From a virus (lineage: Duplodnaviria > Heunggongvirae > Uroviricota > Caudoviricetes), in IMG/VR virus record IMGVR_UViG_2671181055_000004: DNA of 39,417 nucleotides; one strand, written 5' to 3'. The notes under the pieces are model-generated. The model was not told the origin of the DNA and did no database searches. It worked only from the letters and a program-made list of their open reading frames with translations. Position 1 is the stretch's first letter; each line of letters opens with the position of its first letter. Below, one piece after another: positions 1-39,417 of this stretch. The translations under genes were made by a program, and so were the position numbers.

Positions 1-70
1 TCGGTTTACGGGAAACGGTAAACAGGGCGGCGAATGCTCTGCCATCGGACGGCACCGCCGTTGCCGCGAA
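1..70. repeat. Left inverted repeat of the invertible tail-fiber segment (window starts inside the crossover site)
   Basis: nt 1-70 is the reverse complement of 1250-1319 with one mismatch (position 38 vs 1282); weaker similarity continues to about 130 bp. Confidence 0.85.
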
Positions 71-362
71 TAGACTCGCCACCCCAAGAAATATTAATGG
101 GGTTCCCTTTGACGGGACGCAGGACATAAACATCACTTCTGGTATAACACAGCAGGATGCGGATTCCCGATATATCCAGGATATCAGGCTGGGAGCAGAG
201 AACAGGCAGGTAATGTACGGTGGGGCATATTACTCTGCGTACGGTAATGTTATGGCAGGCCTGCAGATTGACAGTAAAGTTGATGCTTCAAACGATTTTA
301 TAGCATTCAGACCCCTGCAAAAATTAGTCGGAGGTACATGGATTACGGTATCTCAGTTATAA
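1..362 (+). CDS. Tail fiber protein, variable C-terminal segment (Sv-like; 5' partial, fused to a constant part outside this contig)
   Basis: Open frame from position 3 to TAA at 360-362; translation ...ETVNRAANALPSDGTAVAANRLATPRNINGVPFDGTQDINI... shows tail-fiber repeat motifs; no start codon because the frame enters through the inverted repeat. Confidence 0.7.
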   Translation, partial: GLRETVNRAANALPSDGTAVAANRLATPRNINGVPFDGTQDINITSGITQQDADSRYIQDIRLGAENRQVMYGGAYYSAYGNVMAGLQIDSKVDASNDFIAFRPLQKLVGGTWITVSQL

Positions 363-413
363 ATAGTCAGTAAATAATATATTTTAAAACAGATTTATTT
401 CCAGGAGGATTTT

Positions 414-935
414 ATGGAACTAAAAAATATAACCCGTTATTATCCTGAAAATATGCCATATGGTAATAATGTTCAGTATTTCCAGAGTGAAGATGGTAAG
501 GATTTCTACGAATCCCTGCCATTATTCACCAAAAAATATAAACTTTGCATAACACCTGACAGCGGCGTTATCTGCTCAATATCACAGGACGCCTCGGCGC
601 TGTATCCTGCGGGGTTTTCTGTGGTTGAGGTCGATGAACTCCCTGAAGGCACGGATATTTCAGGAAACTGGAAGTTTGATAATGGCATAATCTCCCGTAT
701 TCCGGTTAACTACGCAAGAAAACTGGAAGCAATGCGCCAGTCATATCTTAATCAGGCATATGAAAAAATTAATGACTGGAGAACGGAGCTACAACTGGGC
801 ACCATCAGCGATGAAGACAGAGCAGCACTTACCCAATGGATGGCATACATCAGTCAGGTGAAGAAAATGGAACTACCCGCCATTAAAACAGAAGCTGAAT
901 TTAACGCCATTAAATGGCCTGAGCAGCCACAGTAA
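414..935 (+). CDS. Tail fiber assembly chaperone (Tfa / Mu U-like)
   Basis: 173-aa ORF directly after the tail-fiber C-terminus; C-terminal region resembles the Tfa family; lower GC than surrounding genes, typical of tfa. Confidence 0.8.
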   Translation: MELKNITRYYPENMPYGNNVQYFQSEDGKDFYESLPLFTKKYKLCITPDSGVICSISQDASALYPAGFSVVEVDELPEGTDISGNWKFDNGIISRIPVNYARKLEAMRQSYLNQAYEKINDWRTELQLGTISDEDRAALTQWMAYISQVKKMELPAIKTEAEFNAIKWPEQPQ

Positions 936-966
936 TAAAGAAGGCCGGAAGGCCTTCTGAATATCA

Positions 967-1317
967 TTATATACTTGCAGCCGTCACCCATGCTCCATTT
1001 AACAGATACTGCAACGGCCGGTAATACACGCCGCCGACGTTATCTGCCGTATTCTTACCGACATCCTGTACTTTAATTCCGGTAAGAACATTGCCGCCCC
1101 CCAGATTCAGATCCCAGCTTTCCCATGTTCCGGGCATATGTGCGGTCACCGACCCCAGTCTTATGGCGGTTACTGTTCCTGATGAGATAGTGATATCCTG
1201 CGTCCCGTCAAAGGGAACACCATTAATTGTGTGGGCATTTGCCAGCCTGTTCGCGGCAACGGCGGTGCCGTCCGATGGCAGGGCATTCGCCGCCCTGTTT
1301 ACCGTTTCCCGTAAACC
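967..1317 (-). CDS. Alternative tail-fiber C-terminal segment (Sv'-like), no own start codon, expressed only after inversion
   Basis: Minus-strand frame open from the inverted repeat (GLRETVNRAANALPSDGTAVAANRLANAHTINGVPFDGTQDITI...) to the stop at 967-969; N-terminal 23 aa are almost identical to the plus-strand Sv segment. Confidence 0.65.
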   Translation of the reverse strand, partial: GLRETVNRAANALPSDGTAVAANRLANAHTINGVPFDGTQDITISSGTVTAIRLGSVTAHMPGTWESWDLNLGGGNVLTGIKVQDVGKNTADNVGGVYYRPLQYLLNGAWVTAASI

Positions 1318-1319
1318 GA
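1250..1319. repeat. Right inverted repeat of the invertible tail-fiber segment
   Basis: Reverse complement of window 1-70. Confidence 0.85.
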
Positions 1320-1331
1320 GGTTTTCAGGAA
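1306..1331. promoter_or_regulatory. gix/hix-like recombination site (12-bp imperfect inverted half-sites flanking a 2-bp core at 1318-1319)
   Basis: TTCCCGTAAACC-GA-GGTTTTCAGGAA at the outer edge of the inverted repeat, next to the invertase gene; layout resembles Gin/Hin crossover sites (recalled, not aligned). Confidence 0.55.
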
Positions 1332-1396
1332 AGCCAGGATTAACTCTGTTTTATTCCTCATGCGACAATTCCGGCTTTTTATAATAAGGAAATCGT

Positions 1397-1969
1397 ATGC
1401 TGATTGGGTATATCAGGGTGTCAACAAATGACCAGAATACGGCGCTACAAAGAAATGCGCTGGAATGTGCAGGATGTGAGCTGTTTTTCGAAGACAGAAT
1501 AAGCGGTAAGACAAGGGAGCGTCCCGGACTTAAACGCGCATTAAAGCGACTCCGGCCAGGGGATACCCTGCTGGTCTGGAAACTGGATCGCCTTGGACGC
1601 AGTATGCAGCACCTTGTCCTTTTAACAGAAGAACTCCGGCAACGCGGCGTTAACTTCCGCAGCATTACGGACAATATTGATACATCCACTCCCATGGGAC
1701 GTTTCTTTTTCCATATAATGGGCGCGCTGGCGGAAATGGAGCGGGAACTCATTATTGAACGTACACGCGCGGGTCTTGCTGCTGCCCGTGCTCAGGGGCG
1801 TCATGGCGGCAGACCTCAGAAACTGACAGAGAAAGAGCGGGAGCAAATCGCCCGTTTGCTGGCTAATGGCGAGTCCCGTAAACAAATCGCACTGATATTT
1901 GATATTGGCCTTTCCACCCTTTATCGTTATTTTCCTGCCTCACCAGCTCCGTCACCAAAAGTACCGTGA
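1397..1969 (+). CDS. gin: Serine DNA invertase (Gin/Pin/Cin/Hin family)
   Basis: 190 aa, N-terminal MLIGYIRVSTNDQNTALQRNAL... with catalytic-serine region and C-terminal HTH (STLYRYF); close to my recall of Mu Gin; sits immediately outside the invertible segment. Confidence 0.9.
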   Translation: MLIGYIRVSTNDQNTALQRNALECAGCELFFEDRISGKTRERPGLKRALKRLRPGDTLLVWKLDRLGRSMQHLVLLTEELRQRGVNFRSITDNIDTSTPMGRFFFHIMGALAEMERELIIERTRAGLAAARAQGRHGGRPQKLTEKEREQIARLLANGESRKQIALIFDIGLSTLYRYFPASPAPSPKVP

Positions 1970-2054
1970 CGCTTTTTTGAATTTCCGCAAAACACATATT
2001 TTTCAGCGGTCGCTATTCTGACTCTGTTTAATTCAGAAACAGGCAGAAAAGACG

Positions 2055-4109
2055 ATGTCAGACTCCAAGTGGAAAATGCTCTCCGCCATGCCCGGAGAGT
2101 TTTCAGTCAAGGTTGCCGGTGGCACGGTGGCATTTATTGAAAGCCCTTTCCGCCCTTCGGGTAATAAAGGGGGGATCACCTTCGCAGACTGCGTGATCCG
2201 CTTCAGCACGAAAGAGCCATTATGGGTAATGCCGGTATCCGGTAATCCCAGTGCAGAAATCACCAGTTCAGGCGTGACTGGCATCATTCCAATCACATCT
2301 GACGTGGCCGGAACGCTCACGCCCTCCGACTGGAATGCACCGGATAACGCCGGGCCTTCCGGTAGCACGAATGGCAGCAGTTCAGAGCCGGAATATTACT
2401 TTGTTGTCATTCTCGCGGGTCAGTCAAATGGCATGGCCTACGGCGAGGGGCTGCCGTTACCGGATTCGTTTGACCGCCCGGACCCACGCATTAAGCAACT
2501 GGCACGCCGCAGTACGGTAACGCCCAACGGTACGTCGTGTACATACAACGACATCATTCCGGCAGACCACTGCCTGCATGATGTTCAGGATATGAGCGGG
2601 ATAAACCACCCGAAAGCTGATCTGGCAAAAGGCCAGTACGGGACTGTCGGTCAGGGGTTGCATATTGCCAAAAAACTGCTTCCCTATATCCCACAGAATG
2701 CCGGGATACTTCTGGTGCCCTGTTGTCGTGGCGGGTCAGCATTCACCACTGGAGCCGACGGCTCATTCAGTGAGGCCAGCGGTGCTTCCGCTGATTCTTC
2801 ACGCTGGGGGGCCGGTAAACCTCTGTATCAGGACCTGGTAAGCCGCACCAAAGTCGCGCTGGCGAAAAACCCGAAAAACAAACTTCTGGCTGTGGTCTGG
2901 ATGCAGGGAGAGGCAGACCTTGCCTCAGGAAGCCAGCAGCATAATAGTTTATTCACGGCCATGGTTCAGCAGTTCAGAACTGACCTGGCTCCGCTTGCTG
3001 CGCAGTGCGTGAGTGGAAATGCCACCACGGTGCCGTGGATTTGCGGTGATACCACGTATTACTGGAAAAACGCTGGCACCGATAAATATGAGGCAGTATA
3101 CGGTGGCTACAAAGGCAAGGAAGCACAGAAAATTTTCTTTGTACCGTTCCTGACGGATGAGAATGGACAGAGCACGCCAACGAATGCTCCGGCGGAAGAC
3201 CCGGATATTGTGGCTGTCGGGTATTACGGTGCAGCATCCCGAACCCAGGGCAGTTTTGTTTCGACACAGCGTGACAGCCATTTCAGCTCATGGGCACGCA
3301 GGGGCGTCATTTCAGACCGTCTGGCCTCAGCTATTATGCTCCATGCAGGGCGCACGGCTGAACTGATGCGTGGGCAGACCGTGACACCACCGGATGAGAA
3401 GCCGTCACCTGATACACCATCAAAACCGTCCACGCCACCCGCAGACACCACGACGATGAGTACGCTATTTGCTTACCGGGCATCTGAGTCTGAAGGACGG
3501 TTGACACCACAGGGTTGGGCTGCCGGAGGTGGCAAGGCTCAAATCGTGGATGATGCCGGAGCCAGCGGGGGTAAGGCAATGAAACTGACCAAGGAAACAG
3601 GAAGAGCCCCCTGGTACCTTGAGCATGATGCTGGTAATGGTGCGGACCTGCTGGGTAAAGGTGGTCTTGTCAGTTGTCGTTTTAAACTCGATGGCGCGCT
3701 TACGGCTAATCAGTACGCACTGGCGCTGTACTGGCCGGTTTCTGCCCTGCCGCAAGGGGTTACTCTGGAAGGAAATGCCGGTCATAACCTGCTGGCATCG
3801 TTCTACGTACAGAGCGATGCCACAGACCTTAACGTGATGTATCACAAAGGAAACACGGCGCAGAACACGAAGCTGGGGTCATTCGGCGCATTTAATAACG
3901 AATGGCATACGCTGGGCTTCCGTTTTGCCGGTAACAACAGTATTGAGGTGACGCCGGTCATTGATGGTAAGGACGGGACACCATTCATGCTGTCGCAGTC
4001 TCCGGTCGGCACGTTTACGGCAGACAAGTTGCGCGTGACCGATATCACTAAAAATGCGACTTACCCGGTACTGATTGACAGTATCGTGGTGGAAGTGAAT
4101 AACGCGTAA
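2055..4109 (+). CDS. SGNH/SASA-type carbohydrate O-acetylesterase with Pro/Thr-rich linker and C-terminal beta-sandwich-like domain (NanS-p-like sialate O-acetylesterase candidate)
   Basis: 684-aa ORF with RBS-like AGGCAGAAAAGACG before the ATG; motifs FVVILAGQSNGMAYGEG and VVWMQGEADLASG resemble sialate O-acetylesterase/DUF303 blocks; linker PPDEKPSPDTPSKPSTPPADTTT. Confidence 0.55.
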   Translation: MSDSKWKMLSAMPGEFSVKVAGGTVAFIESPFRPSGNKGGITFADCVIRFSTKEPLWVMPVSGNPSAEITSSGVTGIIPITSDVAGTLTPSDWNAPDNAGPSGSTNGSSSEPEYYFVVILAGQSNGMAYGEGLPLPDSFDRPDPRIKQLARRSTVTPNGTSCTYNDIIPADHCLHDVQDMSGINHPKADLAKGQYGTVGQGLHIAKKLLPYIPQNAGILLVPCCRGGSAFTTGADGSFSEASGASADSSRWGAGKPLYQDLVSRTKVALAKNPKNKLLAVVWMQGEADLASGSQQHNSLFTAMVQQFRTDLAPLAAQCVSGNATTVPWICGDTTYYWKNAGTDKYEAVYGGYKGKEAQKIFFVPFLTDENGQSTPTNAPAEDPDIVAVGYYGAASRTQGSFVSTQRDSHFSSWARRGVISDRLASAIMLHAGRTAELMRGQTVTPPDEKPSPDTPSKPSTPPADTTTMSTLFAYRASESEGRLTPQGWAAGGGKAQIVDDAGASGGKAMKLTKETGRAPWYLEHDAGNGADLLGKGGLVSCRFKLDGALTANQYALALYWPVSALPQGVTLEGNAGHNLLASFYVQSDATDLNVMYHKGNTAQNTKLGSFGAFNNEWHTLGFRFAGNNSIEVTPVIDGKDGTPFMLSQSPVGTFTADKLRVTDITKNATYPVLIDSIVVEVNNA

Positions 4110-4123
4110 GCAGGATAAAAAAA

Positions 4124-4158
4124 TGCCGCCGGTAAGGGAAAACAAGAAACCGGCGGCA
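4124..4158 (-). terminator. GC-rich hairpin with adjacent A/T tract (terminator-like when read on the minus strand)
   Basis: TGCCGCCGGT ... ACCGGCGGCA stem (10 bp) with a 15-nt loop, preceded on the plus strand by a run of A (a T-run 3' of the stem on the minus strand). Confidence 0.3.
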
Positions 4159-4253
4159 AAAAGATCGTTATATCCAAAGCAAAAAATGCAGTGCACCTTT
4201 TTACCTAACAGATATTACCGGTGTCAACACCATGTCAATAATTGGGAGGGATA

Positions 4254-4436
4254 ATGACATTTTTACAGCTTATTTTATTGTATTTCTGCACGGCAGTATG
4301 TGCGTTATATCTGGTGAGTGGTGGTTATAAGGCCATCAGAAATTATGTTCGCCGCAAAATTGAGGACGCAGCAGCTGAAAAACTCAGTAAAACAGCGCAG
4401 GTAACTCCGCTCCCAAAAGACCCGACCCAGCCCTGA
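4254..4436 (+). CDS. Small membrane protein (60 aa, one predicted TM helix, basic/charged tail)
   Basis: ATG at 4254 with GGGAGGG 4 nt upstream; MTFLQLILLYFCTAVCALYLVSGGYKAIRNYVRRK...; alternative TTG start at 4242. Confidence 0.4.
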   Translation: MTFLQLILLYFCTAVCALYLVSGGYKAIRNYVRRKIEDAAAEKLSKTAQVTPLPKDPTQP

Positions 4437-4471
4437 TTGCAGGGCTTTATTCCCGCATAAGGAGGATATAC

Positions 4472-4726
4472 ATGCCAGAAATTAAAGGCACCGTCACTGA
4501 AGACCTGGTAAAACAGGCACTGTATTCCGGTGAAGTAAATAAGTTGCTGAAAGCGCAGGTCCGCAAGGATTTTGAGGCACAAATCGACACTTACGTTGAT
4601 GAAGTGCTGGCAAAACTTATTGGGCCAGCAGTTGCGGCCAGTGATGCTGATAATGAGCCGAAAACCGACGCGCAGCCAGAGCAACCAGACCCGGCTCAGC
4701 CCGGAACTGACAGTACCATGATGTAA
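4472..4726 (+). CDS. Hypothetical 84-aa protein with acidic Pro-rich C-terminus
   Basis: Strong SD AAGGAGG 6 nt before ATG 4472; followed by a hairpin at 4733-4758. Confidence 0.5.
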   Translation: MPEIKGTVTEDLVKQALYSGEVNKLLKAQVRKDFEAQIDTYVDEVLAKLIGPAVAASDADNEPKTDAQPEQPDPAQPGTDSTMM

Positions 4727-4732
4727 CAATAC

Positions 4733-4758
4733 AAACCGGTGGTGTCCTCTGCCGGTTT
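4733..4758 (+). terminator. Hairpin after the 84-aa ORF (weak terminator candidate)
   Basis: AAACCGG-(12 nt)-CCGGTTT; the T-run is short. Confidence 0.3.
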
Positions 4759-4893
4759 GACACTAATGAAAACATCTTTGCCGCTATCCAGCCATATGTA
4801 ATCGCTGGATAGTATTTCGTATTCAGAAATATAGCTGCTTATGGAGCAGTCAATCCTGCTTCCCCATCCGGGCAGGCAAATGAACCGGTATCA

Positions 4894-5187
4894 TTAGTCC
4901 GATTCACGCTTTTGTAGAATCGTTCCCAGAATGCTATACAGCTCATTAGCCTGTTGCTCCATCATTGAGACGGAGGCTATACGGTGCAAAGTGATTTCAG
5001 GAGGTGGCACACCTCCATCTTCTTGCTGTGGAGGAAAAACATAAGATTTAATAAAAAAGTTGAAGCATATGAACTCTCCCGCACTCGAACTGTATTTGCA
5101 GGCATCTGAATAATCGGAAAAATAATCATTATAGATTTCCGCATTTTCAATCATTTTTCGATTTCTCGTCGTTACATGATTGTCCAT
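4894..5187 (-). CDS. Hypothetical 97-aa protein in a low-GC island, divergent from com/mom
   Basis: ATG at 5187 with AGAGG 6 nt upstream; surrounding 4740-5440 is visibly AT-rich compared with the phage backbone; no recognisable domain. Confidence 0.45.
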   Translation of the reverse strand: MDNHVTTRNRKMIENAEIYNDYFSDYSDACKYSSSAGEFICFNFFIKSYVFPPQQEDGGVPPPEITLHRIASVSMMEQQANELYSILGTILQKRESD

Positions 5188-5262
5188 AGCAGCCTCTTAC
5201 GCTGGCAATTAACCAATTGACTTCTATAAATTAGTTGATTTGTTTGCTTTGCGGTATTCAAA

Positions 5263-5270
5263 TGTACAAT
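5263..5270 (+). promoter_or_regulatory. Extended -10-like element (TGTACAAT) upstream of com/mom; possible Pmom-type promoter
   Basis: TGnTACAAT in the AT-rich intergenic region about 175 bp upstream of the com start; no good -35, as expected for an activator-dependent promoter. Confidence 0.25.
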
Positions 5271-5377
5271 CATTCAGCACTTATGCGTTACAGCACCGTT
5301 TAAAATTAGTGATCAAACTCATAAATTTTCGCTAATGACATTTCGTGTTATTTGTTGTATCAATTAAATAAATCAAA

Positions 5378-5400
5378 TCGATCGTTTTTGTCGATCGATT
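5378..5400. promoter_or_regulatory. Palindrome carrying two GATC (Dam) sites just upstream of com
   Basis: TCGATCG-tttttg-TCGATCGAT; GATC at 5380-5383 and 5393-5396. Confidence 0.4.
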
Positions 5401-5443
5401 GAGTGATAAAGATATCAACAACAAAGCAGGAGGTTATGCGGCC

Positions 5444-5644
5444 ATGTATCGAAACATACGGTGCCGACATTGTAACAAGCTACTGGCACGAGCCAGCTTC
5501 AGTTATCTGGAAGTTAAATGTCCGCGCTGTAAAACCCTCAATCAAATCACATCTCAGAGCGCCACAGAGCACCCCACATACACAAGGAAATCCTGTCGTG
5601 GGGAACAGAAAGCAAGTTACATCCCGTATCATCAGCACGCCTGA
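5444..5644 (+). CDS. com: Com-like zinc-finger translational activator of mom
   Basis: 66 aa, [34 protein letters not shown]... with CxxC...CxxC zinc finger; SD AGGAGG upstream; overlaps the downstream mom frame as in Mu. Confidence 0.75.
5572..5603 (+). promoter_or_regulatory. mRNA stem-loop sequestering the putative mom SD and GTG start (candidate Com-responsive translational switch)
   Basis: CCCCAC (5572-5577) pairs with GTGGGG (5598-5603); the loop contains AAGGA 9 nt upstream of GTG 5598. Confidence 0.45.
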
Positions 5645-6335
5645 ACTTATTCACTATAACGACAATATCGTCGGTTATGGCTCCCGTGAGTTACGGGTTG
5701 AGACAATAAGTTGCTGGCTGGCCCGGCTGGTCGTCGTCAATAAACATTACAGCCATCGTTTCGTAAATAATTCCTACCTTCATCTGGGCATATTTTCAGA
5801 ACGGGAGCTGGTTGGCGTAATGCAATGGGGTTATGCCCTTAATCCAAACAATGGTGCACGCGTCGTAACTGGCACGCAGAACCGCGAATATATGGAGCTT
5901 AACCGGTTATGGCTGCATGACTGTATGCCGAGAAACTCCGAATCAAGGGCAATCAGTTACGCGCTCAAACTAATCAGACAACTTTATCCGCAGGTGCAGT
6001 GGGTTCAGTCGTTTGCAGATGAGCGTTGTGGCTGTCTTGGTGTCGTGTACCAGGCAAGCAATTTTGATTATGTAGGCAGTCATGAAACAACATTCTATGA
6101 ACTTGATGGCGAGTGGTATCACGAGATTTGCAAGAATGCAATCAAACGAGGAGGACAGCGAGGTGAACATCTGCGGGCTAATATCGACAGAGCCAGTGTT
6201 CATAAATTCCGTCAGTTTCGTTACATCCGGTTTCTGGACAAGAGAGCCAGAAAACGCCTTAACACAAAGCTATTCAAAGTCCAGCCTTACCCAAAACCAC
6301 AAACAGTTAAAACTGGTTTGAAAGAGAGTGAATGA
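5598..6335 (+). CDS. mom: Mom-like DNA modification protein (start inferred at GTG 5598; the long upstream frame from 5403 is not a separate product)
   Basis: Long ORF ending at 6335 directly before the phage right end; overlaps the com 3' end in another frame; 245 aa from GTG 5598, close to my recalled size of Mu Mom (about 230-240 aa). Confidence 0.65.
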
Positions 6336-6370
6336 ACGCTTAAAAACTCATTCTAAAACTCAAAAGAAAA

Positions 6371-6411
6371 GCGCCGATTTAGTATCAAATAAGTTGCGTA
6401 TCGGCGTTTTT
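6371..6411 (+). terminator. Hairpin followed by T5 after mom (terminator candidate; the loop contains the innermost end repeat)
   Basis: GCGCCGAT ... ATCGGCG followed by TTTTT at 6407-6411; the loop is long (about 21 nt). Confidence 0.3.
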
Positions 6412-6463
6412 CAGCGGTATCAAATGAAATGCAAATCGGTATCAAAAAAATCGCCGCGCTATA
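6380..6463. repeat. Right-end terminal transposase-binding repeats (three GGTATCAAA-type sites) and phage terminus
   Basis: AGTATCAAATAAG (6381-6393), CGGTATCAAATGAAA (6414-6428), CGGTATCAAAAAAA (6437-6450); the same motif is repeated three times at the other phage end (38634-38797); terminal 27 bp align in register with the other end as an inverted repeat. Confidence 0.65.
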
Positions 6464-6548
6464 GACAGCCTAAGCGGCTGCTGACCTCCCTGACCATGCT
6501 GTAAATCTCTTTATCCTGGTTGTCACAGAATAAGCCCGGTAAAATACG
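6464..6548 (+). mobile_element. IS66-family element, 3' remnant of tnpB (host side of the insertion)
   Basis: 6466-6504 encodes QPKRLLTSLTML-stop, which joins in frame to the truncated TnpB ...GIDWR at 38810 once the shared GACA is counted once. Confidence 0.6.
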
Positions 6549-6798
6549 NNNNNNNNNNNNNNNNNNNNNNNNNNNNNNNNNNNNNNNNNNNNNNNNNNNN
6601 NNNNNNNNNNNNNNNNNNNNNNNNNNNNNNNNNNNNNNNNNNNNNNNNNNNNNNNNNNNNNNNNNNNNNNNNNNNNNNNNNNNNNNNNNNNNNNNNNNNN
6701 NNNNNNNNNNNNNNNNNNNNNNNNNNNNNNNNNNNNNNNNNNNNNNNNNNNNNNNNNNNNNNNNNNNNNNNNNNNNNNNNNNNNNNNNNNNNNNNNNN
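6549..6798. other. Assembly gap (250 N)
   Basis: Run of n characters. Confidence 1.
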
Positions 6799-20579: not shown

Positions 20580-20756
20580 ACCGGCAGCATAAGCCGGGTA
20601 TTTTTGGGGCTGGTTTTGCGGGACTTCAGAAAGTGCTGACAGGGGGGGAATGAGAAAGGCGCTTCACGCAGATTTTAAAGCCCGTTAAATACAGGTTAGA
20701 AAATCACGACACGCGCCTGAAGGGGGTAAGGTAATACGTTTGCATACCTTAAACCA

Positions 20757-28741: not shown

Positions 28742-28812
28742 TGTTACGCTGTCTCATGGTGTTCTCTGAGTCAGCGTAACCGTGAGGAAAAGGGGGCAGG
28801 ATTTGCGGAATA

Positions 28813-29235
28813 TCAGAAAAGCCGTGGCTGCGTGCGTTCCTGATGCAGGCGACGCTGGTTGCGGATAACGGAGTAAATCTGCGTCTCTGACATCTGGTAG
28901 TGGCGGCGCAGGGTTTCAATTTTTTCGCCCTGGCTCCAGCGGGAAAAAATTTCATTATTGCGCAGTTCGGTGAAAAGGGATTCACCGACCGGGAGATAAT
29001 AACCACGCCCGCCCATGTACCCGGCCTGTGCGGCTGCAACCTTACGGGCAAGCATTCCCGCCTGAGCAGGTTCAATCCCCTGACGGTGCAGTTCAGCACT
29101 GATCACATCAACCAGGTCCCGCAGCGTGCCGGGCCAGTTCTTTTTCAGCTCATCATCAGGAATATCATCCAGACGGTCAATCAGCGCGTGCAGCTGTTCG
29201 CTGTCACCAAACATGCTCATCTGTGTTTCAGCCAT
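28813..29235 (-). CDS. Mor/C-family transcriptional activator (position directly upstream of lys suggests the late activator C)
   Basis: 140 aa with ...GGRGYYLPVGESLFTELRNNEIFSRW... and a C-terminal HTH, matching the Mor/C family pattern. Confidence 0.8.
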   Translation of the reverse strand: MAETQMSMFGDSEQLHALIDRLDDIPDDELKKNWPGTLRDLVDVISAELHRQGIEPAQAGMLARKVAAAQAGYMGGRGYYLPVGESLFTELRNNEIFSRWSQGEKIETLRRHYQMSETQIYSVIRNQRRLHQERTQPRLF

Positions 29236-38807: not shown

Positions 38808-39118
38808 TGTCGCCAGTCGATACCTTCCAGCAGCATCGCCAGCTGCGCCTGTGTAAGGAACACTTTGCCATCACGGGCTGACGGCCAGGCGAAGCGCCCA
38901 CGCTCCAGCCGTTTGGTCAGGAGGCACAGTCCGTCACTGGTGGACCACAGCAGTTTAACCTGACTGCCGCTGCGGCCCCGGAAAATGAAAACATGGCCGG
39001 ACATGGGATCGTCTTTCAGCGCCGTCTGTACTTTCGCAGCCAGGCCGTTGAAGCCATTTCTCATATCGGTGATACCGGCAACCAGCCAAATTTTGATCCC
39101 GGAAGGTAACGGGATCAT
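38795..39118 (-). CDS. tnpB: IS66-family TnpB (orf2), 3' end disrupted: last four codons and stop come from phage DNA
   Basis: MIPLPSGIKIWLVAGITDMRNGFNGLAAKVQTALKDDPMSGHVFIFRGRSGSQVKLLWSTSDGLCLLTKRLERGRF... is a typical IS66 TnpB sequence (recall). Confidence 0.8.
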   Translation of the reverse strand: MIPLPSGIKIWLVAGITDMRNGFNGLAAKVQTALKDDPMSGHVFIFRGRSGSQVKLLWSTSDGLCLLTKRLERGRFAWPSARDGKVFLTQAQLAMLLEGIDWRHITR

Positions 39119-39417
39119 CGCTTCAGTTCCTGTATCAGCAGAGTCAGGAGCTTTTCGCTGACATTGCCATTGAAGCGGAGCGTCCCGTGCCGGAACGTTA
39201 CCTCACAGCTGATACTGAGGGTTTTCGGGTCCTCTGCGAGCGATTCTGGCTGTTCGGCAGCTGCATCGAGAGTCACAGGAAGTAGCTGGGGGCTCTCTGA
39301 AGAAGGTAATAGCTGAGGTGTACTGGCAATAGCGGACACTACCATTTGTTCTTTTTTTAAGCAGCCATCTGATGATATTTTTCCCTGAAGGCTGCCGGGG
39401 AGATATTCCCCAGACGA
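38808..39417 (-). mobile_element. IS66-family element (tnpA-tnpB), interrupted in tnpB by the prophage
   Basis: tnpA/tnpB pair with overlapping stop/start (ATGA); tnpB is cut at ...GIDWR and its 3' end is found beyond the other phage end at 6464-6504. Confidence 0.65.
39115..39345 (-). CDS. tnpA: IS66-family accessory protein TnpA (orf1), possibly N-terminally longer
   Basis: 76-aa ORF translationally coupled to tnpB; assigned by synteny rather than by a recognised motif. Confidence 0.5.
   Translation of the reverse strand: MVVSAIASTPQLLPSSESPQLLPVTLDAAAEQPESLAEDPKTLSISCEVTFRHGTLRFNGNVSEKLLTLLIQELKR

What the first reader, a model, noticed from the sequence alone, without database searches (positions are those of the whole stretch)
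5444..6335. com/mom module with a predicted translational stem-loop; the annotated 310-aa ORF is really two overlapping genes
The ORF track reports one frame from 5403 to 6335, but frame 2 (5444-5644) encodes a Com-like zinc-finger protein and frame 0 carries a GTG at 5598 preceded by AAGGA. Both the SD and the GTG lie inside a hairpin (CCCCAC 5572-5577 pairing with GTGGGG 5598-5603), the arrangement by which Com is known to unlock mom translation in Mu. The host may therefore carry Mom-type adenine modification capacity, which is lethal when unregulated.
Basis: partly seen in the sequence, partly recalled or inferred. Interest (0 to 1): 0.45.

Follow-up and report, generated by a model that had tools for sequence, protein, structure and literature searches.

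The report
Mu-type com/mom DNA-modification operon

Summary
The genes overlap by 47 nt in the same +1 frame relation as in Mu. The GTG forms the 3' arm of a 6-bp stem (CCCCAC 5572-5577 / GTGGGG 5598-5603). AAGGA lies in the enclosed loop, and the experimentally defined Com RNA motif CC(N)3GAG (5562-5569) sits at the same 10-nt offset as in Mu. The upstream part of the 310-aa ORF is not coding. In ~94%-identical E. coli variants a stop lies 84 nt before the GTG, with no other start between. Substitutions there fall on com third codon positions. RefSeq annotates exactly these two genes in 100%-identical prophages, and 233 of 5,426 complete E. coli genomes carry the module. Side observations: the same com/hairpin/GTG cassette is fused to a cytosine-5 methyltransferase in sister prophages, and the hairpin architecture recurs in com-linked mom genes across Proteobacteria. 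The right-end 6.5 kb of the prophage is inverted in this window next to a 250-N run.

The parts
5376..5400 (.). Perfect 9-bp inverted repeat AATCGATCG-N7-CGATCGATT carrying two GATC (Dam) sites (5380, 5393). Homologous to the GATC-bearing region upstream of Mu com.
   Evidence: repeat and GATC positions; unique in the window; about 25 of 34 positions match Mu's AATCAATTAAATCGATCGGTAATACAGATCGATT. Its role in Dam/OxyR control is inferred from Mu (PMC3378877).
5428..5433 (+). Shine-Dalgarno AGGAGG for com, 10 nt before ATG 5444. An out-of-frame ATG at 5436 lies only 2 nt after it.
   Evidence: Read directly from the sequence. Mu has AGGAGG at the equivalent place.
5444..5644 (+). com: 66-aa zinc-ribbon translational activator (CxxC-N16-CxxC, Cys 7/10/27/30).
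   Evidence: Pfam PF10122 E=7.5e-13. 45% identity to Mu Com. PGAP CDS WP_014334043.1 at identical coordinates in L003/L004. 6 of 7 (L090) and 8 of 8 (L092) substitutions at com third codon positions.
5559..5570 (+). Weak 2-bp hairpin presenting the Com recognition motif CC(N)3GAG (CCACAGAG, 5562-5569), immediately 5' of the translation inhibition stem.
   Evidence: Fold. Motif definition 5'-CC(N)2-3GAG-3' from SELEX/SHAPE in PMC6483171. Same 10-nt offset as in Mu.
5572..5603 (+). Translation inhibition structure: stem CCCCAC (5572-5577) / GUGGGG (5598-5603) and a 20-nt loop. An inner helix in the loop pairs part of the SD.
   Evidence: MFE and centroid. Identical in the O157-type variants; one loop substitution, at 5596, in the methyltransferase variant. 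Homologous to Mu CCCAC/GUGGG.
5584..5588 (+). mom Shine-Dalgarno AAGGA, 9 nt before the GTG, inside the hairpin loop.
   Evidence: GG 5586-5587 pair with CC 5592-5593 in the predicted inner helix.
5598..6335 (+). mom: 245-aa tRNA(Gly)-dependent adenine aminoacyltransferase (GNAT fold), GTG start, overlapping com by 47 nt in the +1 frame.
   Evidence: Pfam PF25680 E=7.8e-78. PDB 8bv8 E=2.4e-123. Essential residues conserved. PGAP CDS WP_000528246.1. 27 of 38 substitutions at mom third positions.
6336..6463 (+). Right end of the transposable prophage. Homology to other insertions stops at about 6463-6469, followed by ISEc8 (IS66-family) flank 6464-6548.
28813..29235 (-). The only detectable Mor/C-family transcription activator of the prophage. 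Candidate trans-activator of late genes, possibly including com/mom (inferred).
   Evidence: Pfam PF08765 E=6.7e-31. No paralogue found by tblastn.

Best explanation
Window 5444-6335 is the com/mom operon at the right end of a Mu-like (Sp18-type) transposable E. coli prophage. One mRNA carries both genes. The mom ribosome-binding site and GUG start are locked in a hairpin: 5572-5603, start codon in the 3' arm, SD in the enclosed loop and partly paired. com is translated first from its own strong SD. The zinc-ribbon protein Com binds the CC(N)3GAG motif in the small hairpin just 5' of the lock (5559-5570) and destabilises it, allowing ribosomes to start at GUG 5598. Mom then transfers glycine from Gly-tRNA(Gly) to N6 of adenine in double-stranded DNA. 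The glycyl group rearranges to N6-carbamoylmethyl-adenine, which protects phage DNA from restriction. Shown here: gene identities, start codon, overlap, hairpin, binding motif, catalytic residues, purifying selection in the two frames. Inferred from Mu: Com binding, unlocking, enzymatic activity, and late-lytic, Dam-sensitive transcription.
For: Family assignments. Same start and gene boundaries in RefSeq for 100%- and ~94%-identical copies. Mu comparison: com 419-607, GUG 558 in CCCAC/GUGGG, 50-nt overlap, same +1 frame offset. Two-hairpin fold like Mu's. Start codon: in variants L090/L091/L092 an in-frame stop lies 84 nt upstream of the GTG and no ATG/GTG/TTG lies between. Substitutions switch from com third positions (6 of 7) to mom third positions (27 of 38) across the junction. 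In sister prophages, homology to the cassette persists through GTG GGG AAC A and then switches to a different gene whose ORF begins at that GTG. Across 80 species-representative mom loci, 49 have a Com-like ORF overlapping the mom start. In 36 com-linked loci the predicted pairing probability of the start codon is 0.80, against 0.65 with shuffled upstream sequence (Wilcoxon 5e-5) and 0.60 in 11 com-less mom genes (Mann-Whitney 0.006). The base opposite the first start nucleotide tracks AUG versus GUG: 9 C-G, 7 U-A, 3 C/A mismatches, 1 U-G; Fisher 0.02. CC(N)2-3GAG lies within 40 nt upstream of the 5' arm in 20 of 25 loci, against 3.1 expected. Mechanism literature: PMC6483171 (Com motif, hairpin next to the inhibition structure, GUG in the stem), PMC3378877 (toxicity, Dam/OxyR/C control), PMC13219725 (Mom chemistry, essential residues).
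Against: No experiment on this phage. The hairpin is not thermodynamically exceptional (z -1.76 for 58 nt, -0.13 for 101 nt). The Com-presenting hairpin is only 2 bp here, against 4 bp in Mu. The 5' arm and the Com site lie inside com coding sequence (codons for A-T-E-H-P-T), so RNA-level and protein-level conservation are confounded. The cross-species statistics use heuristic start choice, mononucleotide shuffles and phylogenetically related loci. The stretch that holds Mu's C-activator site in the comparison is absent here, leaving 44 nt rather than 71 nt between the GATC repeat and the com ATG. A motif shared by two likely late promoters of this phage is not found upstream of com. Transcriptional control may therefore differ from Mu. 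In this window the prophage right end is inverted relative to the rest, so the element may be defective here.
Confidence: 0.9

Rival explanations
1. Mom is made as a longer protein from an upstream start in the same frame (GTG 5403, 310 aa, or ATG 5436, 299 aa), so there is one gene, not two overlapping ones.
For: The frame is open from 5403 in this window. ATG 5436 lies just after a strong AGGAGG.
Against: In ~94%-identical E. coli variants and in the methyltransferase variant the frame has a stop 84 nt before the GTG. Substitutions in 5444-5597 fall on second positions of this frame and third positions of the com frame. ATG 5436 is only 2 nt from the SD. The Pfam Mom profile starts at residue 96 of the 310-aa product, and nothing matches its N-terminal part. 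Removing the 10 residues upstream of the GUG from Mu Mom is well tolerated (PMC13219725).
Confidence: 0.02
2. The hairpin is a by-product of coding constraints (Com 'EHPT' codons opposite Mom 'M-G' codons). It has no regulatory role in this phage, and mom is translated constitutively once transcribed.
For: Both arms are coding. Stability is not beyond shuffles at 101 nt. The Com-site hairpin is weak.
Against: The same architecture is experimentally regulatory in Mu (PMC6483171). The His codon third base covaries with the AUG/GUG choice. Start codons of com-linked mom genes are more often predicted paired than in com-less ones. The cassette is retained intact when the downstream gene is swapped. 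The C-terminal tail of Com that encodes the arm is dispensable for RNA binding (PMC6483171), so its conservation is more easily explained at the RNA level.
Confidence: 0.05
3. The module is an inert relic of a defective prophage: intact in sequence but never expressed, because the element is rearranged in this genome.
For: The right-end 6.5 kb, including com/mom, is inverted relative to the rest of the prophage. This separates the tail-fibre constant part from its variable part, with a 250-N run at the junction.
Against: Identical copies sit at different chromosomal sites in other genomes in the canonical order, indicating recent transposition. com/mom and its upstream region are unaffected by the rearrangement. 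The rearrangement may be a scaffolding artefact.
Confidence: 0.1

Closest known systems
Bacteriophage Mu com/mom operon (NC_000929 35768-36602)
   Same: The gene order, the +1-frame overlap (47 nt here, 50 nt in Mu), the GUG start in the 3' arm of a CCCAC/GUGGG-type stem, and CC(N)3GAG 10 nt upstream of the arm all match. So do the position at the right end of a transposable phage and the GATC-bearing repeat upstream. Mom is 78% identical with all essential residues, and Com is 45% identical with four Cys.
   Different: The loop is 20 nt with an inner helix, against 11 nt in Mu. The stem is 6 bp (5 G-C), against 6-8 bp. The Com-presenting hairpin is 2 bp, against 4 bp. There is no upstream in-frame ATG equivalent to Mu's annotated ATG. 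The stretch that holds Mu's C-binding site in the comparison is missing. gin is not adjacent: four extra genes (SASA/DUF6645, DUF1378, DUF826, one hypothetical) lie between gin and com.
Mu-like prophages of E. coli O157:H7 and other STEC (Sp18-type), e.g. NZ_CP104309 locus L090
   Same: About 94.5% nucleotide identity over com-mom. The hairpin, SD, GTG and Com motif are identical. The same PGAP annotation applies. PMC3299994 already cites Sp18 as encoding Mom and its regulator.
   Different: A few amino-acid changes (Com Q38P and Y59H; eight in the L090 Mom). These variants carry the in-frame stop that this window lacks upstream of the GTG. That L090 is an Sp18-type prophage is my assumption; Sp18 itself was not compared.
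Com-linked non-Mom DNA methyltransferases (Pseudomonas phage B3 Com + adenine MTase; FluMu HI1522.1/hin1523; Pnm1 nma1821)
   Same: A com gene is retained upstream of a DNA-modification gene at the mom position (PMC3299994). Sister prophages of this window carry the identical com/hairpin/GTG cassette fused to a C5-cytosine methyltransferase.
   Different: The cargo in this window is a true Mom, not a methyltransferase.

Membership tests
Com (Mu translational activator, Pfam PF10122) | About 60-aa protein with an N-terminal four-cysteine zinc ribbon (Cys6/9/26/29 in Mu) | tested here: met
   66 aa with Cys7/10/27/30. PF10122 E=7.5e-13, above the gathering score. 45% identity to Mu Com.
Com (Mu translational activator, Pfam PF10122) | Gene lies immediately upstream of, and overlaps in another frame, the start of the regulated DNA-modification gene | tested here: met
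   47-nt overlap with mom in the +1 frame, as in Mu.
Com (Mu translational activator, Pfam PF10122) | [quoted passage not shown] | tested here: met
   CCACAGAG at 5562-5569, at the same offset as in Mu. The predicted presenting hairpin is only 2 bp, so the structural part is weak.
Com (Mu translational activator, Pfam PF10122) | [quoted passage not shown] | not testable with these tools
   Needs EMSA and reporter fusions.
mom translation inhibition structure (TIS) | Stem-loop that includes the mom start codon in its stem and encloses the SD | tested here: met
   Stem 5572-5577/5598-5603, GUG in the 3' arm, AAGGA in the loop. It is the MFE and centroid structure. It is unchanged in the ~94%-identical O157-type variants; the methyltransferase variant has one loop change, at 5596. 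The architecture recurs across Proteobacteria.
Mom (Pfam PF25680; tRNA(Gly)-dependent adenine aminoacyltransferase) | Full-length match to the Mom family and to the solved Mu Mom structure | tested here: met
   PF25680 E=7.8e-78, profile positions 1-202 of 202. PDB 8bv8 E=2.4e-123.
Mom (Pfam PF25680; tRNA(Gly)-dependent adenine aminoacyltransferase) | Residues shown to matter in Mu Mom (W48, H58, Y59, R111, S124, D149, R151, Y159, W181; 241-aa numbering) and the HTH-like insertion 175-209 | tested here: met
   All are conserved, at W40, H50, Y51, R103, S116, D141, R143, Y151 and W173. The insertion is present without gaps.
Mom (Pfam PF25680; tRNA(Gly)-dependent adenine aminoacyltransferase) | Converts adenine in dsDNA to N6-carbamoylmethyl-adenine | not testable with these tools
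   Needs LC-MS of DNA after expression.
Mu-type mom transcriptional control (Dam/OxyR + activator C) | Cluster of GATC sites upstream of the promoter | tested here: met
   Two GATC sites in a perfect 9-bp inverted repeat (5376-5400), homologous to Mu's region. A third GATC is at 5311.
Mu-type mom transcriptional control (Dam/OxyR + activator C) | C-activator binding site between the GATC region and the -10 element | tested here: not met
   The corresponding ~27-nt Mu stretch is absent in the alignment. No sigma-70-like promoter is detected. A motif shared by two putative late promoters is not upstream of com. A Mor/C-family gene exists. The location of Mu's C site is taken from my own knowledge, not from a paper read here.

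The most novel reading that the evidence does not exclude
The com gene, Com-binding motif, inhibitory hairpin and start codon form a portable translational lock. In this Sp18-like lineage it has been recombined, within about 10-30 nt after the GTG, onto at least two unrelated DNA-modifying enzymes (Mom here, a C5-cytosine methyltransferase in sister prophages). The same lock is maintained across Gamma-, Alpha- and Deltaproteobacterial mom loci, with a synonymous His-codon base in com covarying with the AUG/GUG choice of the downstream gene. In this lineage the lock would be combined with a promoter that lacks Mu's C-site and places the Dam-site repeat next to the -10 region.
Probability: 0.55. 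Interest if true: 0.3.

Novelty: already known. Interest (0 to 1): 0.1.

Why it matters
The host strain carries an apparently functional anti-restriction DNA-hypermodification gene under a translational lock. That is relevant to phage host range and to the cloning toxicity of this region. The mechanism, the gene pair and even these exact protein sequences are already in the literature and in RefSeq. The practical value is as a check that a tool-less reading of raw sequence recovered a correct overlapping-gene call, start codon and regulatory hairpin.

Tried and rejected
- Rfam scan of 5200-6500: no family. The only hit was a sub-threshold IS102 match (E=0.59), taken as chance.
- PDB sequence search with Com: no hit.
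- 101-nt fold: not more stable than shuffles, so stability alone cannot carry the claim.
- Longest-stem comparison around candidate starts in com-linked versus com-less loci: uninformative (6.4 versus 6.1 bp) because the search space was too large. It was replaced by base-pair probabilities and by a register defined without the first start nucleotide.
- Test of whether the GATC repeat is a general late-promoter element: it occurs once in the window.
- Search for motifs shared between the com upstream region and putative late promoters: none found. CCGCAAAnCCnGCCCC is shared by two other sites only.
- Attempt to resolve the inverted right-end segment: blocked by the 250-N run.
- Upstream starts at 5403 and 5436 for Mom: considered and rejected.

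Full report
**What is in the sequence.**
- The mechanical ORF list gives 5403..6335 (310 aa, GTG).
- ATG 5444 opens a 66-aa ORF in another frame that ends at 5644.
- GTG 5598 is in the 310-aa frame, preceded by AAGGA (5584-5588) at a 9-nt spacing.
- CCCCAC 5572-5577 is the exact reverse complement of GTGGGG 5598-5603.

Folding 5553-5610 as RNA gives, as both MFE and centroid, two hairpins. The first is a weak 2-bp hairpin at 5559-5570. The second is the 6-bp stem 5572-5577/5598-5603. Its 20-nt loop contains a small inner helix that pairs GG of the SD with CC 5592-5593.

Stability alone is unremarkable: z = -1.76 for 58 nt (8 of 200 shuffles), and z = -0.13 for 101 nt. The experimentally validated Mu structure scores the same under the same test (z = -1.60).

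**Gene identities.** The 66-aa product hits Pfam Zn_ribbon_Com (PF10122, E=7.5e-13). The 245-aa product read from the GTG hits Pfam Mom (PF25680, E=7.8e-78) over the whole profile. The N-terminal 95 residues of the 310-aa ORF match nothing.
- Com is 45% identical to Mu Com, with cysteines at 7, 10, 27 and 30.
- Mom is 78% identical to Mu Mom and matches the solved structure 8bv8 at E=2.4e-123.
- Every residue reported to matter in Mu Mom is conserved: W48, H58, Y59, R111, S124, D149, R151, Y159 and W181 in 241-aa numbering (PMC13219725). The HTH-like insertion is conserved too.

**The start codon and the 'two genes, not one' claim.** In Mu the com ORF (L001 419-607) overlaps mom. The GUG at L001 558 lies in the 3' arm of CCCAC/GUGGG. 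[quoted passage not shown] Window GTG 5598 is positionally homologous, with the same +1 frame offset (154 nt here, 139 nt in Mu; both 3n+1) and a similar overlap (47 versus 50 nt).

Independent comparative evidence comes from E. coli variants about 94% identical (L090, L091) and from a cargo-swapped variant (L092), all.
- In all three, the mom frame has a stop 84 nt upstream of the GTG. No ATG, GTG or TTG lies between the stop and the GTG.
- In 5444-5597, 6 of 7 (L090) and 8 of 8 (L092) substitutions are at com third codon positions, which are second positions of the mom frame.
- In 5645-6335, 27 of 38 substitutions are at mom third positions.

The upstream part of the 310-aa ORF is therefore an accident of this allele. 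NCBI PGAP annotates exactly com (201 nt) and mom (738 nt, same GTG) in 100%-identical prophages: WP_014334043.1 and WP_000528246.1, the latter named 'tRNA(Gly)-dependent adenine aminoacyltransferase Mom'.

[quoted passage not shown] The window has CCACAGAG at 5562-5569. It sits 10 nt before the 5' arm, the same offset as CCUGCGAG in Mu. The presenting hairpin is weaker here: 2 bp against 4 bp.

**Context.** The window is a Mu-like transposable prophage.
- It encodes a Mu-type transposase, GemA, one Mor/C-family activator, a lysozyme and a Gin-type invertase.
- Identical copies sit in different chromosomal genes in other E. coli genomes, and homology ends at about 6463-6469, the right end.
- The com-mom module occurs in 233 of 5,426 complete E. 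coli genomes, mostly at ~94.5% identity in O157:H7 and other STEC.
- PMC3299994 already cites Sp18 as a Mu-like phage encoding Mom and its regulator.

**Mechanism.** The best-supported account is that of Mu.
1. com is translated from its own AGGAGG.
2. Com binds the motif-bearing hairpin and destabilises the adjacent stem.
3. Ribosomes then reach the SD and GUG 5598.
4. Mom transfers glycine from Gly-tRNA(Gly) to N6 of adenine in dsDNA, and the glycyl group rearranges to N6-carbamoylmethyl-adenine (PMC13219725).

Untimely expression is cytotoxic, which explains the layered control (PMC3378877). Shown here: anatomy, homology, frames and conservation. Inferred: binding, unlocking and chemistry.

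**Transcription is less certain.** A perfect inverted repeat, AATCGATCG-N7-CGATCGATT (5376-5400), carries two GATC sites. It is homologous to Mu's GATC region (about 25 of 34 positions) and is unique in the window. The ~27-nt stretch of Mu that follows it is missing. By my own knowledge, not from a paper read here, that stretch holds the C-activator site. Only 44 nt separate the repeat from the com ATG. No sigma-70-like promoter is found. A motif shared by two putative late promoters (20606-20621 and 28793-28808, minus strand) is absent upstream of com.

**Comparative extension.** A scan of one genome per species returned 80 mom loci. Of these, 49 have a Com-like CxxC...CxxC ORF overlapping the mom start, in Gamma-, Alpha- and Deltaproteobacteria.
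- With the start chosen by SD strength, the mean predicted probability that the start codon is paired is 0.80 in 36 com-linked loci. It is 0.65 with shuffled upstream sequence (Wilcoxon 5e-5) and 0.60 in 11 com-less loci (Mann-Whitney 0.006).
- With the register defined only from start positions +2 to +5, the base opposite the first start nucleotide forms a standard pair in 19 of 25 loci. C goes with GUG (9) and U with AUG (7); there are 3 C/A mismatches and 1 U-G (Fisher 0.02). That base is typically the third position of a His codon in com.
- CC(N)2-3GAG lies within 40 nt upstream of the 5' arm in 20 of 25 loci, against 3.1 expected.

These numbers come from related sequences and heuristic choices. 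They support conservation of the lock but do not prove it.

**Cargo swap.** In a Mu-like phage inserted in Stx phages (L002) and in E. coli SW070917 (L092), the com gene, Com motif, hairpin, AAGGA and GTG are about 92-94% identical to the window. Identity runs through GTG GGG AAC A. The downstream gene is then a 350-aa C5-cytosine DNA methyltransferase (PF00145, E=1.6e-42) whose ORF starts at that GTG. Replacement of mom by adenine methyltransferases behind a retained com is already known for B3, FluMu and Pnm1 (PMC3299994). This case is a further example rather than a new principle.

**Window architecture.** The prophage is inserted in ISEc8 (IS66 family) tnpB.
- The left flank and most of the phage lie on the minus strand (39313 down to 6799).
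- The G segment, gin, four cargo genes, com, mom, the right end and 85 nt of ISEc8 flank lie on the plus strand (1-6548). That block is therefore inverted relative to the canonical order seen in L004.
- Window position 1 lies at or within a base or two of the centre of a gix-type site, and its partner is at about 1300-1330.
- The junction on the other side is hidden by 250 Ns (6549-6798).

This is either a real inversion or a misoriented scaffold piece bounded by repeats. I could not decide between them. It does not touch the com/mom cis elements.

**Verdict.** The feature is a textbook system that is already correctly annotated in public databases, so interest is low.

Noticed in passing
window 1-6548 versus 6799-39313; N-run 6549-6798: The right-end 6.5 kb of the prophage (G segment, gin, cargo genes, com, mom, right end and 85 nt of ISEc8 flank) is inverted relative to the rest of the prophage and its left ISEc8 flank. 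Window position 1 lies at or within a base or two of the centre of a gix-type recombination site. The other junction is hidden by 250 Ns. This is either a real inversion or a scaffold misorientation.
   Followed up: partly
window 6464-6548 and 38808-39313: The Mu-like prophage is inserted in the tnpB gene of an ISEc8 (IS66-family) element. The two flanks overlap by 4 nt (GACA) on the intact element L089.
   Followed up: yes
L002 4065-5316; L092 1596-2802: Sister Mu-like prophages keep the same com, Com motif, hairpin, SD and GTG (92-94% identical). The cassette is fused to a C5-cytosine DNA methyltransferase instead of mom, and homology switches just after GTG GGG AAC A.
   Followed up: yes
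L007 378-590; L008 372-590: Pseudomonas phages JD024 and PAN70 carry Com-family ORFs (PF10122, E=1e-14 to 1e-17) overlapping the mom start. These ORFs are not annotated in the records. Aeromonas phage pAEv1818 has mom without com, downstream of an antiterminator Q-like gene.
   Followed up: partly
window 5376-5443 versus Mu L001 324-418: The GATC-bearing inverted repeat is homologous to Mu's. The following ~27 nt of Mu, which I take from my own knowledge to hold the C-activator site, are absent. The repeat therefore abuts a -10-like GATAAAGAT, and the promoter organisation probably differs from Mu's Pmom.
   Followed up: partly
window 20606-20621 (-) and 28793-28808 (-): The motif CCGCAAAnCCnGCCCC occurs exactly twice: upstream of the lysozyme gene and upstream of a structural operon. 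Including two weaker sites there are four matches, and 0 of 100 shuffles reach four. It is a candidate late-promoter (Mor/C) site and is not present upstream of com.
   Followed up: partly
window 2055-4109 (+): A 684-aa protein with a SASA carbohydrate-esterase domain and DUF6645 lies between gin and com, together with DUF1378, DUF826 and one hypothetical gene. Mu has no genes at this position.
   Followed up: no
window 5436-5438: An ATG in the mom frame lies 2 nt after the com SD and 8 nt before the com ATG. It is open to the mom stop in this allele only; variants have a stop in this frame. Initiation there is unlikely, but it would yield a Com-independent 299-aa Mom fusion.
   Followed up: partly
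L003/L004/L090 annotation of window 5444-5644: RefSeq names Com a 'DNA-binding transcriptional regulator', whereas the experimental literature describes an RNA-binding translational activator.
   Followed up: no
window 28813-29235 (-): Only one Mor/C-family activator gene is detectable in this prophage, between gemA and the lysozyme gene. By my own knowledge Mu has two (Mor and C).
   Followed up: partly
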